This document shows positions 42,101-57,100 of a stretch of DNA of 64,000 nt, piece by piece (within the stretch, counting starts at the first letter, position 1; the number at the start of each line of letters is the position of its first letter). The DNA comes from Saccostrea cucullata (taxonomy: Eukaryota), in the NCBI RefSeq assembly GCF_032062105.1, contig NW_026938715.1, positions 186,001 through 250,000 of the forward strand, written 5' to 3'. A program made the position numbers.

Positions 42101-45100
42101 TTTTTTTTAATCAAGTTTTTTTATTGGCAAGTGACTCACTGTTCACAAAAACCACAAGTGCATAAATGTATCTTTGTTTAAGATCGACAAGGATGAAAGT
42201 ACTTAAACATCCTGTACATTAGAACAACACCAAGTAAAAGAAAATTCACAGTAGAAACTCACGTTTAAAAACATATCTCCACTCACAATGTAAAAAAAAA
42301 AATGATTTTTTTCAATTTTCTATATTCTTTTATAATGAGAGGCTTCGATCCGGAGACATTACTACATAATCACTGTCATCAACTTTTGTGTCATTAGCCA
42401 TGTAAATATACCAGTCTTCCTCAGATTGGCCGACCACTGTTTTAGAAGGATCATTTTCATATACATGTAAGCCCAAGTCCTTATCACTTCCACTAGTATT
42501 TACATTTCTTATGTCATTTTCATATAGAAACAAGTCTTGGAACCTTTCACTGTCATCCTGATAATTAGCATACACAGAGCCTGTGACTTCGGACTCACTA
42601 CGAGATCTGAAAATATTGGCGTATACTTGGTAGTGACTTTCATTAAACTTTGGAGGTGGTGGTCTTTTAGGAGGAACTTTTTTCTTTCCTTTCTGTGTAC
42701 TTTTTCCTCTGATTTTCGAGTGATCATTTTCATGTATATGGTTTTTGTTGAAAGTAGTGTCACTCGCAGTTGTCTTTTCAATACGAATAGTGCATGGATG
42801 CACAAGATCAGAGCTTTGACAATTTGGGAAAGGGCCATCAATTTTAGGTATTTTCTTCTCTACCTTTCCTACATTGGAAGTGGACGCTGATTTTGGTCGA
42901 CATTGTAATGCACCACTCCCATCCTCTGGCAGTTTTAACAGATTTGAAATGGACTTTGATTTCTTTCCTTTACGGACAGGGACGGTGATTTTATGGACAA
43001 TTTTTGACATAGAGAAGTTAATCCCTTCCATGTCCAATATCTGGAAAGAAAAACATTCTGGTAAATCATCATAATACATCATCTTGTTATATTCTCTAAA
43101 TTCGCTAAGTTACTTTGTAAAAAAGGGGATTGTTAACAATAATTCTTAGAGAAAATTCTAATTTTGAGCATACATTCTTTTCGACTGCAGACTTAAGATA
43201 TTTCAAAAAATGAAAGGTAAATTTTTGGCGCACATCTTTTCATGTTTTTCAATACATGATTACATAAAGAATGAATAATTATATTTATAATCAGATGCAT
43301 GGTAAAAATTCAATGAATGGTGAACCCCCATTTGTTTATTGCTCACTCCATCACGACACCTGATCCCAGCTCTGAAGTTTTAGAGGTCCTTGTTTGCCCC
43401 GCTCTTATTTTGTAATGTTTAATAGACTATGTGCACGAATACAGTATTAATATTTTATTTAGAAGAGCTAGAACGAAAATATCAGTCACTGGTGAAGATT
43501 ACGAACAGAGATCGATCTCCTAATTATACAAATCTGTAAAGAGGAAATAAAAACGGAACCCCAGAAAATTCCAGAGGAGGGATTAGGTGCCTAGGAGAAG
43601 TAAGCATCCCTTGTTGACTGCTCACACCCGCCACGTCCCTATGTATTAATCAAGTGGACGGAACATTATATATTCAAATTTAATACAAAAGCAAAGATCT
43701 AACAAATGGCAAGAAACAAGTCAGCAAGCAGACTTTTTTGCTTATTGTATTTTTGACATTCATGTTGCATAAAATTATCTGTCAGTAATTTGTCTCGGTT
43801 CAAAAATGAGTTGGGAGACACAAACACCATATGCATGTGAGAGCGCAATAAATAAGGAAAGACAGCGATGGAAAAGCGAAAGTTGTCATGTTGTTTGTCA
43901 AACAGTTAGTTGGCAATTTAATTGTCATCTAAATCAGTACAATATTCAGATAATGGAACAGACGTTGCACACTTTTTTTTTGTATATCTTATTTACTGGG
44001 ATATATAGATTTGAGTTATAAATGAAAATAGCATTGTTTTTTGATAATTAAACAAACAAATATGTTCCAAAAAGTAGGAAGGGTAACTTCCCATGTCCTC
44101 CCCTTTATAATAAACACCTGTCTTGAAATATCTTACCTTTTGAAGCAGTTTGCGCAATTTTAATTCCAGTTTTCTTTATGTCAACAGTAAATTTTGAATG
44201 ATGATATTAAGATGAGATCGGCTGTATATATGCATTACAGCCATGATCTCGGAAATGTGTAACAATCATGCATTTGTCATTTGCATACTTCTCGGAAACC
44301 TACGTCGATAATTTACAACAAAAATTTCTTCCCTACTTGAACGAAAAAAATAGATGTATTACTACTTTGCGTGGGTTAATTGATGTCCAAAATTAAATAA
44401 AGTCAATAGCTAATTGTATTGTACATGTACTTTTATATGAGTATCTGTCCATACTTAGATTCTTTGGCAAAAAGGGATCGCCTTTTAAGGACATACACAA
44501 CGTACCTTACCTACTGTTAACTTTTCAAATATTTTCAATTTAAGATTATAGTGCCATCAGATGTTCTTAAACAAAAATTCAGTATGCATTACCAGGGTTT
44601 TTTGGACGATATCAAATCATGAAAATTTTTGTATTATTCAAAGAAAAATATACAAAAATTACAAGACATAAATTCCAGATTTTTTCCCCATCAAATTTGT
44701 TTTGGAAGAGGTGTATAAATCCTTATATAGACATTTAAAATATTTCACACAGGTCCTTCATTTAGTGGAACTCTTCAACTCCAGGGAAGAACCCAATAAT
44801 GTTCAAACAACGTTGCGTATGACCTCAAGAATCCCCTATTTGGACATTATGACCTTGACATCACTATCAATGTCCAGTGACCTTGAACTTGATATGTCAT
44901 TGAAGTGAGATCATAATACGATAGCAGCGACGAGAAGCTCTTAAGATTCGAATATCAATTTTTTTAGTTTCGCATTTTAATAAATAAAATTTTGCGACAA
45001 ATAAAATACAAATATTTATATGTAACTAAATACAGGAGTGCCTTGTTTGGTTTGAGGAGGCAAGTAAAATATGTCACAATTATTTCATTTTTATTTTAAA

Positions 45101-54174: not shown

Positions 54175-57100
54175 AATCTGATGAACAATCTTTTTCCATA
54201 TTCATATTTCCATAGTATAAAAAAGACATTTTCGATTACGCATGTATATTTCATATACACTGTATATTGAATTATCAATTTACATCACAAAAGAAGCTCT
54301 ATACTTTAAGATTTCACAATTTCATTGTAATGAAAAAATACCAGAGCATATTTTGTGAGTACCAATCAACCGTAGTCAAGAGCACCGAGGGTTATTTGGG
54401 TATCACAGAATATGTAATTGATTAAAAAAAATTCAAAAAATATATGCCAAAAATTTAAACCACTGGTACTCAGTTTTGTTCCAGTATTCGTGATATACAT
54501 GTACGAGTCGTTTTTTTTTTACTATCTGTATATTGTTTTTTTTTTATTTTGCATTTAATGGACAGCTGTCTTCTAGACTCATTGGCATGTAATCATCTGT
54601 GTCCTCAAATTTAACATCACCAGGTCGACTGTTGGACATGTCCAAATAATCATCGACATTTCCAGACTTACGCACTGATGGTTCTGAGGTACTTTTGGCG
54701 TTTCTAAATAGTAGCCTCAACCTGTCTCTTAATACCTTGGGGTCGTCCACATATCTGCCAGGACTGTCAACAGAAATGCTTTTTTCTGGAGGTTTGTGAG
54801 CTCGTTCATGCTGAGCAGACAGGTCTGGACTTGTGTATCTGTGTTTGAAAGGGGTAAAGTTTTTAGAGAACTTTGGCGGTGGTGGTCTGGCAGGCTTTGG
54901 CTTTTTAGCTGGTTTCGTGGAAGATTTGGTTAGATCGTTCGAAACATTACTTGAAACAATCACCGATTGGGACTGAAGTCCTCTTTCCTCTATGCAATTG
55001 TCCATTCCCTGATTCAATTCCGATTTCTTTTTCTCTTTTTCATCCTCCGAATTTTCGGTTTTCTGTACAGTTCCAGGCCTATGTGCGAATTCATATTCAC
55101 AAGTTTCATCATTCTTCTTACTTACATCTGACGTAGATCCAGTTTGTAACACAACATTTTGATAACCCGATTCCTGATTGTCGTTTTCTAATTTAAATTC
55201 AAGTTGCTCAACGTTTTGATAAATACTACTTGCTTCTCCATTTTCTTCTCCTTTAATATCAGAGGAATCATCTGATGCTTTTGGAGTTTTACACGTTTCG
55301 ATGTTTTCATAAAGACATTCTTCAACAGGTTGTTTGAGCTTGTTTTCTTCCTCGGGAAATACATGTGTCGTGGGATTAACAATAGCAACCTTTTTCATTG
55401 ATTTCGATTCATTCTGCATGTCAGCAACCGGTTGAAGATAATCATCAAGACTATCGTCAGTGCTGTTGCTGGCAGTAGAATGCAATGACCGGTTATTTCT
55501 CATCTGCAAAGATTCTATGACGTCATCATTGAGTTCTTCTGCTGATTTTGAGCGTTTGAGATCATAACCCGGGTTATTTACACCAACGTCATGAAGACTT
55601 TCCAAACTACTGAGATCAGAGATGGATTGACTTTGTTCCTTACATTTGCTGTGTGAGAAAAGTCTCAGTTTGCGCAGCAGGAACATTCTTTTTTACCTCC
55701 TGGAATAGAAGAGCTTTTAATTAAAACATAATTAAAACATAAAACTTAAACCTTTATTTTCATTATAAATAATATGTGCAAGAATACATAGCAATTTTTA
55801 TTTTTTTTTTAATTCGTGAGGCCTATACCTATAAGTCTTAAACTGCAGCTTGTTTTTTTTATCTTTATTACACAACACGAACGTTGTATACAAACAATTA
55901 TGCTGAACTACTTATATAAGAAACACTCATCTGCCTCACGTTTATAACAACATTTAATGCGTATAATTTCCGGGAACTAATGCCTAAGTGTACCAAAAGA
56001 CCTTGGATGTTGTCTGAGTTTACTTGACTCATGAAAAGGGATGTGCAAGCACACTCGCTGTCTGGGAAAATACATTCAAATTAAGAGAAAGGTACTTTTA
56101 AAGCAGTGTGTGACATAAGTAAATTGATTACACAATAAAACCTACTTGAAGATGCATTATTCCCTTTGATATGTTTTTGTCATTTCAATAGTGAAGCAAC
56201 CATGTGTCAGCATTGAACATAGTGACAGGATGCAGTCAGAGTCATCTTCCAATTGCGAAACATCCCAACAAAGTTAATTAAAGTTTAAAGAGAGTAGAGA
56301 CCAATTTTAGCGAGGAAAAAATAAATTCAAAATTTTTTAGGGGTTCTGCAGTTTTATTATTATTATTATTAATTACGAAATCTTATACCTTGAATTGGAA
56401 TTTCTTTTTTTTTCTCTCTCTCTCTAGGAATAAAATTTTAATCCTTCTCGCGAAATGTTCAAATACATTTTGTGCAGTTTAGATTAATGATAAGTTTGAA
56501 AAGTTGAATAAATAAAATTTGTTTACCATTTATTAGATACAATTAGATTTAGATTTGTCATTTATTTTACTCTAGTTTATAGTTTAAATGTCAACGTTAA
56601 AATTCAAATTCAGTATGATTTAGCAACTGGATATTAATATGTACATGCATCTTAGATATTTTAATTATACCCTATTGATTAAAACTTGTGCTCTATTTAT
56701 CCTTTTCTTTTTGACAAATAATTACTCCAGACAATTATAAAAGTCTCCTTCTCTTAGACTGTGCGAACAGTTCGAAATTGTGCATTTTTTCATTTCTAAT
56801 TTAGATTATATAGAAAACTTTTTTTTATTTTACATCTGGGCTTTTTGTAAAAAATTATCACATAAACATATATGCAGACTAATTTACAATAGAATATTAG
56901 TGAAAAGAAGTTTTTGCTGATTAGAATATTGGAATGTCGAAGTTCCAAAATAATGAATTTTAATCTTATGAAAAATAAAGCACTTACATGAAGTATATCT
57001 GGATTAATAGCCACTCAAAGAGAATTCGTCTTGTGAAATATTTTCCTGTACAGAATATAATTTTGACAACATACCGAGACAAAGGTTCCGGAAGCTCTCA

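What the first reader, a model, noticed from the sequence alone, without database searches (positions are those of the whole stretch)
42330..55686. Tandem pair of domain-less, motif-only phosphotyrosine adaptor genes
Seen: two same-strand single-coding-exon ORFs ~11.5 kb apart with little overall similarity but the same ordered motifs. These are a basic N-terminus, SKSISNL/SQSISDL, RPKSA/RSKSA, PKRPPPPKF/PARPPPPKF, FRSRSESE/FRNAKSTSE, several YxN, and two acidic-context YxxM at the C-terminus (YIYM..DYVVMS / YLDM..DYMPMS). No PH, PTB, SH2 or transmembrane segment is visible, and paralog B has an in-frame stop before its ATG. Established: pYxN binds Grb2 SH2, paired pYxxM binds PI3K p85, Pro-rich motifs bind SH3, and RxxS is a basophilic-kinase/14-3-3 type site. 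Inference: a lineage-specific family of Gab/IRS/LAT-like scaffolds conserved only through linear motifs, possibly in hemocyte or growth signalling, and easily missed by domain annotation.
Basis: partly seen in the sequence, partly recalled or inferred. Interest (0 to 1): 0.72.

Follow-up and report, generated by a model that had tools for sequence, protein, structure and literature searches.

The report
Oyster-restricted disordered tyrosine-motif adaptor gene pair
Two neighbouring oyster genes encode fully disordered proteins in which tyrosine is the best-conserved residue and sits in textbook docking motifs, so they are probably lineage-specific signalling scaffolds, though nobody has tested this at the bench.

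Summary

Both are real genes found only in oysters. B has 10 relatives and A has 10. The named ones are Saccostrea echinata and Magallana gigas. A B-family profile found only 2 representatives among 1.84 billion proteins.

Neither protein has a Pfam domain, a hydrophobic segment or a predicted fold. AlphaFold2 pLDDT is 47 for B and 50 for A.

Tyrosine is the most conserved residue: 8 of 10 invariant in B and 5 of 9 in A. All 22 family members keep:
- three or more YxN;
- a C-terminal YxxM pair;
- RPPPPK inside a class I SH3 motif.

The best reading is a set of domain-less phosphotyrosine docking proteins that work like Gab, IRS or LAT but belong to none of those families.

Three weak points remain:
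- A and B are probably paralogs, but this is only weakly shown. Only the proline block aligns significantly, and motif order is marginal.
- A most likely starts at M18 (43031).
- Phosphorylation, binding partners and expression are untested.

The parts
42330..43031 (-).
   Evidence: ORF. P0011, a 100% identical database protein, is 233 aa. Eight of 11 family members start at this ME.
43041..43053 (-). Predicted 3' splice acceptor of A (tttttctttccag), 9 nt before the ATG, in phase 0 with the open frame
   Evidence: Read. A prediction only; no RNA data.
42645..42686 (-). A proline/basic block KGKKKVPPKRPPPPKF (class I SH3-ligand pattern KxxPxxP)
   Evidence: Invariant KK.PPKRPPPPK in 11 of 11 members. 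The only region aligned with B by hhalign.
42453..42623 (-). A cluster of four YxN motifs (YANI, YANY, YEND, YEND)
   Evidence: Three of the tyrosines are invariant in 11 members.
42354..42410 (-). A C-terminal paired YxxM (YIYM, acidic run, YVVMSP)
   Evidence: The pair is present in 11 of 11 members, spaced 14-18 residues, and the last Tyr is always 12 residues from the C-terminus.
42885..42899 (-). A basophilic-kinase-type site RPKSA (family consensus KRSKS)
54544..55686 (-). Gene B: coding sequence (380 aa plus stop) in a single exon
   Evidence: Ten orthologs at 41-78% identity. Nine of 11 rows start at MFL[LF]RKLR.
55693..55710 (-). Predicted 3' splice acceptor of B (ttctattccag, AG at 55701-55700), followed by the in-frame TAA (55695-55693), 13 nt before the ATG
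   Evidence: Read. A prediction only.
55564..55581 (-). B NPxY motif with hydrophobic residue at -5 (VNNPGY, residues 36-41), a PTB-ligand pattern
   Evidence: NPxY is present in 9 of 11 members; the two without it lack or replace the N-terminus.
55543..55557 (-). B KRSKS (residues 44-48)
   Evidence: 9 of 11 members.
55363..55392 (-). B invariant block KVAIVNPTTH (residues 99-108), meaning unknown
   Evidence: Invariant columns K99 and A101-H108.
55156..55311 (-). B cluster of three YxN motifs (LYENI, SIYQNV, GYQNV)
   Evidence: Y126, Y156 and Y175 invariant in 11 of 11.
54868..54915 (-). B proline/basic block KPAKKPKPARPPPPKF
   Evidence: Highest pLDDT segment of the model (block 261-270 = 82).
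54577..54648 (-). B C-terminal paired YxxMS (DDYLDMS ... DDYMPMS)
   Evidence: Present in 11 of 11 members, spaced 19-25 residues, with the last Tyr 14-15 residues from the C-terminus.

Best explanation
A and B are two real genes, each with a single coding exon, found only in oysters and probably produced by an old tandem duplication. Each encodes an intrinsically disordered protein with no domain.

The proposed mechanism is a phosphotyrosine docking scaffold. A receptor or Src-type tyrosine kinase phosphorylates the conserved tyrosines, most of which have acidic residues upstream. The proposed downstream contacts are:
- The pYxN sites (3-4 in B, 4-6 in A) recruit the SH2 domain of Grb2/Drk, feeding Ras-MAPK.
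- The C-terminal pair of pYxxM[S/T] sites, 14-25 residues apart, engages the tandem SH2 domains of the PI3K regulatory subunit.
- The invariant KK.P..RPPPPK block binds an SH3 domain through its class I pattern, either of the kinase or of an adaptor.
- B additionally offers NPxY (a PTB ligand) and two YxxP (Crk/Nck-type SH2 ligands).
- The KRSKS and RxxS sites, and the Ser/Thr at +4 of the YxxM motifs, would allow Ser/Thr-kinase feedback as in IRS proteins.

Shown here: the genes, their conservation, their disorder and the motif pattern. Inferred: phosphorylation, the partners and the pathway.
For: Real genes:
- Long ORFs in AT-rich DNA.
- Orthologs at 78% (B) and 66% (A) identity in Saccostrea echinata, both listed with the same 44,901,083-bp longest contig.
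- Ten relatives found for each gene; each family alignment has 11 rows.

Disorder:
- Pfam gives 0 families for A at E<=1, and for B only 4 hits, all below their curated cut-offs.
- Maximum 19-residue Kyte-Doolittle hydropathy is 0.68 for A and 0.08 for B.
- AlphaFold2 mean pLDDT is 46.6 (pTM 0.15) for B and 50.1 (pTM 0.14) for A, with no residue at 90 or above.
- The Atlas's own model of B has pLDDT 0.39.

Selection on tyrosine:
- B has 8 of 10 Tyr invariant against 26% of all residues (Fisher p = 4e-4).
- A has 5 of 9 invariant against 18% (p = 0.01).
- Tyr is the top-ranked residue in both families.

Motif conservation:
- YxN in 22 of 22 members.
- Paired YxxM in 22 of 22.
- [RK]xxPxxP and RPPPPK in 22 of 22.
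- YxxM[ST] twice in all 11 B members and in 10 of 11 A members; the eleventh, the window's own A, has it once.
- NPxY in 9 of 11 B members.
- YxxP in 11 of 11 B members.

Motif enrichment over shuffles is given.

Motif meanings. IRS YxxM leads to PI3K, YxN binds GRB2, and YxxMSP is a compound switch: passages read in PMC9481563. LAT, LAB and LAX are multivalent Grb2-SH2 scaffolds: abstract of PMC3291652 in the listing. The specificities of Crk for YxxP, PTB domains for NPxY and class I SH3 ligands are from my own recall.
Against: - No evidence of transcription, translation or phosphorylation was available.
- Short motifs such as YxN and YxxM also fit other readings, for example YxxPhi sorting signals or ITIM-like [SIVL]xYxx[IVL] (11 of 11 B members).
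- Neither protein has a recognisable membrane anchor. There is no PH domain, TM segment, N-terminal MG or CaaX box (0 of 22). Almost all known docking proteins have such an anchor, so how these would reach a kinase is unexplained.
- The window's own A has lost the first family YxN tyrosine (HEN where 10 of the 11 aligned members have Y).
Confidence: 0.55

Rival explanations
1. The ORFs are the last coding exons (cytoplasmic tails) of larger transmembrane or domain-bearing proteins. On this reading the tyrosine motifs are receptor-tail docking or YxxPhi sorting signals.
For: - Strong acceptor-like sites lie 9 nt (A) and 13 nt (B) before the ATGs.
- In A the acceptor is in phase 0 with a frame that stays open back to 43109.
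- P0010 (Magallana gigas) has a different N-terminus, and P0014 and P0015 have N-terminal extensions.
- Basic residues right after the start would fit a juxtamembrane position.
Against: - B has a TAA between acceptor and ATG, and by my reading the other two frames close within 20 codons.
- Nine of 11 B rows and 8 of 11 A rows start at the same Met, with a conserved N-terminus.
- The length-unrestricted profile search returned only 392-393 aa representatives, covered end to end.
- No family protein hits anything else in the window.
- The 10 minus-strand upstream ORFs of 68-92 aa that I picked had no Pfam hit. Shorter exons would escape that check.
Confidence: 0.1
2. A and B are not paralogs. 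They are unrelated disordered genes that happen to be neighbours and converged on the same short motifs.
For: - BLASTP finds nothing.
- The B profile did not retrieve A among 1.84 billion representatives.
- Cross-family hmmsearch scores are at most 18.8 bits, and some real rows rank below shuffled decoys.
- With gap extension -0.3, block-shuffled orders of A score as well as the real order (94 of 500 and 180 of 500 reach it).
- The hhalign signal rests on a low-complexity proline run.
Against: - The genes share strand and adjacency, a single coding exon, and the same predicted acceptor just before the ATG.
- Both S. echinata orthologs are listed with a longest contig of the same length.
- The anchors are collinear: KRSKS, S[IL]YQN, KK.P..RPPPPK, Y[IL]xM, an acidic run, then Y[VM]xMS near the C-terminus.
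- With near-zero gap extension the real order beats block-8 shuffles in all but 0-13 of 400, and block-12 shuffles in all but 9-38 of 400.
- hhalign gives E = 2.8e-6 and 2.4e-5.
Confidence: 0.2
3. The proteins are real, but the conserved tyrosines are not phosphorylation sites. They could be aromatic 'stickers' or ligands for other modules, in a disordered protein regulated by Ser/Thr phosphorylation. Its basic KKPK block could be a nuclear localisation signal, or B's N-terminus an organelle-targeting peptide.
For: - K[KR]x[KR] is present in 22 of 22 members and RxxS in 22 of 22.
- B's first 17 residues are basic and hydrophobic with no acidic residue.
- No membrane anchor is present.
- The invariant KIAIVNPTTH block has no phosphotyrosine reading.
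Against: - Phe is poorly conserved: 2 of 10 invariant in B and 0 of 7 in A, against 8 of 10 and 5 of 9 for Tyr. So hydroxyl-bearing Tyr specifically is selected, not aromaticity.
- The +2 Asn and +3 Met are conserved together with the Tyr.
- Acidic residues precede 9 of 10 Tyr in B, though 1046 of 20000 shuffles reach that count.
Confidence: 0.2
4. The ORFs are chance open frames or decayed mobile-element remnants.
For: The window holds transposon-like ORFs elsewhere.
Against: - The frames are 259 and 382 stop-free codons in 33% GC DNA.
- Orthologs exist in other oysters, with motif-specific conservation.
- There is no other copy in the window.
Confidence: 0.01

Closest known systems
Gab / Daughter of sevenless (DOS) / SOC-1 docking proteins
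   Same: A long disordered region carrying YxxM (PI3K), YxxP (Crk) and proline-rich SH3 ligands, with nearby Ser/Thr sites for feedback. The passage read in PMC4766514 mentions the three YXXM motifs and the PH-domain recruitment of GAB1 and IRS.
   Different: No PH domain. No Gab-type PxxxRxxKP motif (0 of 22). No sequence similarity. The proteins are much shorter (233 and 380 aa).
IRS / chico insulin receptor substrates
   Same: Acidic-context YMPMS-type sites (DDYMPMS in B) with Ser/Thr at +4. A in the window even has YVVMSP, the YxxMSP compound form described for IRS1 (passages of PMC9481563). YxN for GRB2 is also shared.
   Different: No PH or IRS-type PTB domain. YxxMSP is present in only 2 of 11 A members and 0 of 11 B members.
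LAT / NTAL (LAB) / LAX transmembrane adaptors
   Same: Small, domain-less, disordered proteins whose function lies in several pYxN Grb2-binding sites (abstracts of PMC3291652 and PMC2196071, listing).
   Different: No N-terminal transmembrane helix and no CxxC palmitoylation motif. LAT-type adaptors are known from vertebrates (recalled). There is no sequence similarity.
Polyomavirus middle T antigen (recalled, not tested)
   Same: One short unstructured polypeptide combining NPxY, YMPM-type and other pTyr sites with a proline-rich stretch, acting purely as a scaffold.
   Different: Viral, membrane-anchored at its C-terminus and with a J-domain N-terminus. No relation was tested or implied.
Proline-rich region of the E3 ligase Itch (5xmc_A)
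   Same: The only PDB sequence hit. KPSRPPRPSRPPPP aligns to KPaKKPKPaRPPPP. From recall, this Itch region is an SH3-binding site.
   Different: E = 3.9, so not significant. It is a similarity of low-complexity motifs only.
WDR44 (the public name of the S. echinata ortholog is 'WD repeat-containing protein 44-like')
   Same: Only the automatic name given by a source.
   Different: No WD40 repeat or any other Pfam domain. The name is best treated as a misnomer.

Membership tests
Gab/DOS/SOC-1 | N-terminal PH domain | tested here: not met
   No Pfam hit for A at E<=1. B has only 4 unrelated sub-threshold hits. AF2 shows no folded domain.
Gab/DOS/SOC-1 | Atypical Grb2 C-SH3 ligand PxxxRxxKP (motif recalled) | tested here: not met
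   0 of 11 B members and 0 of 11 A members.
Gab/DOS/SOC-1 | Multiple YxxM / YxxP docking tyrosines | tested here: met
   YxxM pair in 22 of 22 members. YxxP in 11 of 11 B members but 0 of 11 A members.
IRS/chico | PH domain followed by IRS-type PTB domain | tested here: not met
IRS/chico | Repeated acidic-context YxxM, partly YxxMSP | tested here: inconclusive
   There are two YxxM[ST] sites, not many. YxxMSP occurs only in 2 of 11 A members.
LAT/NTAL/LAX transmembrane adaptors | N-terminal transmembrane helix with juxtamembrane palmitoylated cysteines | tested here: not met
   Maximum 19-residue hydropathy is 0.68 (A) and 0.08 (B). B has a single Cys15 in SKCKE, invariant in none of the alignments (C 0 of 6 invariant).
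LAT/NTAL/LAX transmembrane adaptors | Several pYxN Grb2-binding sites in a disordered tail | tested here: met
   3-4 YxN in B and 4-6 in A, in 22 of 22 members. Phosphorylation itself is not testable here.
FRS2 / Dok membrane-linked docking proteins | N-myristoylation signal (MG) or PH domain, plus PTB domain | tested here: not met
   N-terminal MG in 0 of 22 members. No PTB in Pfam.
BCAP/BANK/Dof | DBB domain and ankyrin repeats | tested here: not met
   No Pfam hit.
WDR44 | C-terminal WD40 repeats | tested here: not met
   No WD40 hit. The proteins end 12-15 residues after the last YxxM.
Phosphotyrosine docking proteins in general (functional kind) | Tyrosine phosphorylation and SH2/PTB partner binding | not testable with these tools

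The most novel reading that the evidence does not exclude
Oysters carry a family of docking proteins built from linear motifs alone. They have no folded domain, no membrane anchor and no detectable relative outside the oyster lineage. A single 230-440-residue disordered chain would couple tyrosine kinases to Ras (YxN), to PI3K (a paired YxxMS with an IRS-like Ser switch) and, in B, to Shc/Crk-type partners (NPxY, YxxP). The family then duplicated in tandem and diverged until only the motifs remain. That would be a natural example of a signalling scaffold arising in a lineage from short motifs, and of motif syntax outlasting sequence homology.
Probability: 0.35. Interest if true: 0.65.

Novelty: new variant of a known kind. 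Interest (0 to 1): 0.5.

Why it matters
Docking proteins that link tyrosine kinases to Ras and PI3K differ between animal lineages. Vertebrates, flies and worms use unrelated proteins downstream of FGFR (passages of PMC7260276).

A family confined to oysters, conserved almost only at tyrosine motifs, would show how such scaffolds arise and turn over. It would also point to an unannotated node in bivalve growth or immune signalling.

It is a practical warning for annotation as well. Domain-based pipelines leave these genes unnamed or misname them: the S. echinata ortholog of B is called 'WDR44-like'. If phosphorylation is not found, the genes are still a clean case of selection acting on tyrosines in a disordered orphan protein.

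Tried and rejected
- **BLASTP, A against B:** nothing.
- **hhalign in -glob mode:** gave a meaningless 9-column alignment, and its column-shuffle null was uninformative (108 of 150 shuffles reached the observed score). I discarded it as a test.
- **Cross-family hmmsearch with shuffled decoys:** real rows lead the lists, but at no more than 18.8 bits. 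Two of 4 A rows and most B rows fall among or below decoys, so this is weak.
- **B-profile search of 1.84 billion representatives:** only the family's own 2 representatives were found. No distant relatives, no A, no fused forms.
- **ESM Atlas:** B's best feature score was 0.80, which the tool says shuffled proteins reach a third of the time, and all structural TM scores were at or below 0.28. A gave no usable hit.
- **PDB sequence search with the B profile:** one non-significant hit, the Itch proline-rich region at E = 3.9.
- **Pfam on 10 upstream minus-strand ORFs:** nothing.
- **tblastn of all 21 family proteins against the window:** no HSP outside the two ORFs with E below 0.036. That one lies in a tandem-repeat ORF at 1965-2138.
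- **The listing of cluster members:** Accessions and names of the unnamed relatives, and adjacency of the S. echinata genes, stayed unchecked.
- **Literature:** 'RPPPPK' matched 0 papers. 'oyster' plus 'YxxM' matched 1 paper, whose passage concerns mammalian GAB1 and IRS. The search with Crassostrea, Grb2, adaptor and phosphotyrosine listed nothing on such a family among the 12 rows shown of 1,826. The search with YxN, YxxM, disordered, scaffold and invertebrate gave 3 papers, none on such a family.
- **Ideas considered and dropped, from motif patterns I recalled:**
  - ITAM (0 of 22 members).
  - CIN85 PxxxPR (0 of 22).
  - EVH1 FPxxP (0 of 22).
  - 14-3-3 mode 1 (2 of 22).
  - C-terminal PDZ ligand (0 of 22).
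  - Homer PPxxF as a shared motif: 11 of 11 B members but only 3 of 11 A members.

Full report
**What is there**

The window is AT-rich eukaryotic DNA at about 33% GC. Its best protein matches are to oysters: Saccostrea echinata and Magallana gigas. Nothing suggests a human contig.

Two ORFs lie on the minus strand: A at 42330..43082 (250 aa) and B at 54544..55686 (380 aa), 11,462 bp apart. Read stop to stop they are 259 and 382 codons. They rank 5th and 2nd among only 13 ORFs of 120 aa or more in all six frames of the 64 kb.

So is the in-frame TAA two codons before B's ATG (55695-55693).

**Gene models**

Both ATGs sit just after strong acceptor-like sites.
- In B, ttctattccag has its AG at 55701-55700, 13 nt before the ATG. 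The TAA lies between them, and by my reading the other two frames close within 20 codons.
- In A, tttttctttccag has its AG at 43042-43041, 9 nt before the ATG of M18 (43031).

P0011, a 100% identical database protein, is 233 aa, which matches a start at M18. Eight of 11 A-family proteins start at this ME. Nine of 11 B-family rows start at MFL[LF]RKLR.

So each gene most likely has a non-coding 5' exon and one coding exon, and A's coding sequence is 42330..43031. This is inference from sequence and from predicted relatives; no RNA data were available. No spliced model was needed or built, so no joined-exon step arises.

**Relatives and range**

B found 10 proteins at 41-78% identity. A found 3, and its profile found 11, the window's own included.

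Only two relatives carry organism names. The S. echinata ortholog of B is called 'WD repeat-containing protein 44-like' and its ortholog of A 'uncharacterized protein'. M. gigas has an 'Uncharacterized protein'.

A profile of the B family, scored against 1.84 billion representative proteins without any length filter, returned only 2 representatives (392 and 393 aa), both covered end to end. No distant relative, no fused form and no A-type protein appeared. As far as these libraries show, the families are confined to an oyster lineage. Motif-only proteins lose detectable similarity quickly, so absence elsewhere is not proven.

Both S. echinata orthologs are listed with the same longest-contig length, 44,901,083 bp.

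**No domain, no anchor, no fold**

- Pfam gives nothing for A at E<=1. For B it gives four unrelated hits, all below their cut-offs; the best is DUF4193 at 16.8 bits against a cut-off of 25.
- Maximum 19-residue hydropathy is 0.68 for A and 0.08 for B, so there is no transmembrane segment.
- AlphaFold2 with the family alignments gives mean pLDDT 46.6 and pTM 0.15 for B, and 50.1 and 0.14 for A. No residue reaches 90, and the best-scoring segment in each is the proline block.
- The Atlas's own model of B has pLDDT 0.39.
- N-terminal MG and CaaX are absent in 22 of 22 members.

**What is conserved**

Tyrosine is the most conserved residue type in both families.
- B has 8 of 10 Tyr invariant across 11 sequences, against 26% of all positions (Fisher p = 4e-4).
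- A has 5 of 9 invariant, against 18% (p = 0.01).
- Phe is poorly conserved: 2 of 10 in B and 0 of 7 in A.

The invariant tyrosines sit in fixed contexts. Patterns shared by both families are compared below.

| Pattern | B family | A family |
|---|---|---|
| YxN per member | 3-4, in 11 of 11 | 4-6, in 11 of 11 |
| Spacing of the C-terminal YxxM pair | 19-25 residues | 14-18 residues |
| Distance of last Tyr from the C-terminus | 14-15 residues | always 12 residues |
| YxxM[ST] twice | 11 of 11 | 10 of 11 |
| RPPPPK within [RK]xxPxxP | 11 of 11 | 11 of 11 |
| KRSKS | 9 of 11 | 6 of 11 |

B alone has:
- NPxY with a hydrophobic residue at -5 (VNNPGY; 9 of 11, the other two lacking this N-terminus);
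- two YxxP (DDYLQP and RYTSPDL, 11 of 11);
- CEYEF;
- an invariant block KIAIVNPTTH that I cannot explain.

Against composition-preserving shuffles, the joint count of YxN and YxxM is reached in 0 of 20000 for A and 8 of 20000 for B.

**Are A and B paralogs?**

Evidence for:
- Profile-profile comparison is significant only around the proline block: probability 88%, E = 2.8e-6 over 33 columns with 4 A sequences, and 75%, E = 2.4e-5 over 20 columns with 11.
- With a lax posterior threshold the same alignment runs on for 222 columns and pairs the two YxxM sites. A second alignment pairs SISDLSS...KRSKS with SxPNLL...RSKS, but only at E = 0.3.
- A pairwise global alignment beats all 300 shuffles (z = 5.7).
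- My own profile-profile dynamic programming beats column permutations in every setting: 0 of 500, and 0 of 400 in all 8 settings.
- The recovered chain of anchors is KRSKS, S[IL]YQN, KK.P..RPPPPK, Y[IL]xM, an acidic run, then Y[VM]xMS.

Evidence against, or weak:
- When motifs are kept and only their order is shuffled, support is marginal. With gap extension 0 or -0.05, 0-13 of 400 (8-column blocks) and 9-38 of 400 (12-column blocks) reach the observed score.
- With gap extension -0.3 the figures are 94 of 500 and 180 of 500, which is no support.
- Cross-family hmmsearch is weak, at no more than 18.8 bits, with some real rows below decoys.

Adding the shared strand, adjacency and predicted gene structure, I rate an old tandem duplication at about 0.75-0.8. 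It is not demonstrated.

**Mechanism**

The best-supported reading is a phosphotyrosine docking scaffold.
- Kinases phosphorylate the conserved tyrosines.
- pYxN recruits the Grb2/Drk SH2 domain.
- The doubly phosphorylated YxxM pair engages the two SH2 domains of the PI3K regulatory subunit.
- The class I proline motif binds an SH3 domain.
- B adds PTB (NPxY) and Crk-type (YxxP) ligands.
- KRSKS, RxxS and the +4 Ser/Thr allow Ser/Thr feedback.

The motif-to-partner rules for IRS proteins (YxxM to PI3K, YxN to GRB2, YxxMSP as a pSer-dependent switch for SHP2) are in the passages I read of PMC9481563. LAT, LAB and LAX as multivalent Grb2-SH2 scaffolds comes from an abstract in the listing. The Crk, PTB and SH3 class rules are recalled.

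Genes, conservation, disorder and motif syntax are shown here. Everything downstream is inference. The main gap is localisation: there is no PH domain, TM segment or lipidation signal. B's conserved basic and hydrophobic N-terminus (MFLFRKLRFFSHSKCKE) might bind membranes, or it might be a targeting peptide. That is speculation.

**Comparison with known families**

The proteins work like Gab/DOS, IRS/chico and LAT/NTAL/LAX but are members of none. The PH domain, PTB domain, TM helix, DBB domain, WD40 repeats, the MG signal and the Gab PxxxRxxKP motif were each tested and are absent.

The only PDB sequence match is the proline-rich, SH3-binding region of Itch, and it is not significant (E = 3.9). 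The public 'WDR44-like' name is unsupported.

Lineages using unrelated docking proteins for the same job has precedent: Frs2, Dof and the worm solution downstream of FGFR (passages of PMC7260276).

**In print?**

- 'RPPPPK' matched 0 papers.
- 'oyster' plus 'YxxM' matched 1 paper, whose passage concerns mammalian GAB1 and IRS.
- Two broader searches listed nothing on such a family.
- Subscription journals and supplementary files were not searchable.

**Verdict**

This is a new, lineage-restricted variant of a known functional kind, the phosphotyrosine docking protein. It is unusual in having neither a domain nor an anchor.

Interest is moderate at 0.5. The invariance of the tyrosines is striking and the hypothesis is directly testable. 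All function is still inferred, and the tandem-paralog claim rests mainly on one proline block plus gene context.

Noticed in passing
window 40037..41083 (+): Intronless rhodopsin-family GPCR ORF (348 aa; 7tm_1, E = 1.4e-27). It is convergent with gene A, with 1,246 bp between the two stop codons.
   Followed up: partly
window 19868..21361 (+): 497-codon open frame with DUF3504 (E = 3.9e-18), a QRICH1 domain (1e-13) and the end of a phage-integrase tyrosine-recombinase domain (1.6e-8). This is a Crypton-like or domesticated recombinase gene.
   Followed up: partly
window 27488..28209 (-): Two overlapping minus-strand frames (130 and 122 codons). One has a weak, sub-threshold YopJ/cysteine-peptidase-like hit (E = 1.8e-4, 21.6 bits against a cut-off of 24.4). 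It looks like a frameshifted mobile-element remnant.
   Followed up: no
window 1962..2366 (-): 134-codon frame made of about 29-residue tandem repeats ([29 protein letters not shown]...). It gave the only sub-0.1 tblastn hit outside the two genes (P0020, E = 0.036), which I take as low-complexity noise.
   Followed up: no
window 31613..32497 (+): 294-codon Q/N/S/G-rich open frame with no Pfam family. Its nature is unknown.
   Followed up: no
window 54057..54284: A (GA)n/(TC)n microsatellite that reads as LSLSLS / ERERER in opposite frames. It lies about 260-490 bp downstream of B's stop codon, probably in its 3' UTR.
   Followed up: no
window 55363..55392 (-), B residues 99-108: The block K[VI]AIVNPTTH is invariant or nearly so in all 11 B-family sequences and absent from A. 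It fits no ligand pattern I know, and it is NPxx without a tyrosine.
   Followed up: no
window 42732..42734 (-), A residue H117 of the 250-aa ORF: The window's gene A has His where the other 10 aligned family members have the Tyr of the first YxN (I/L-Y-[EQ]-N). So this species has lost one docking tyrosine.
   Followed up: partly
P0001 (S. echinata ortholog of B): The public automatic name 'WD repeat-containing protein 44-like' is not backed by any WD40 or other domain. It probably arose from proline-rich low-complexity similarity.
   Followed up: partly
P0014, P0015, P0010: Three relatives have N-terminal extensions or a different N-terminus. P0014's extension (MLSIVFSVI) resembles a translated polypyrimidine tract like the one before A's ATG, so it may be intron read-through in an ORF call. 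Not checked.
   Followed up: no
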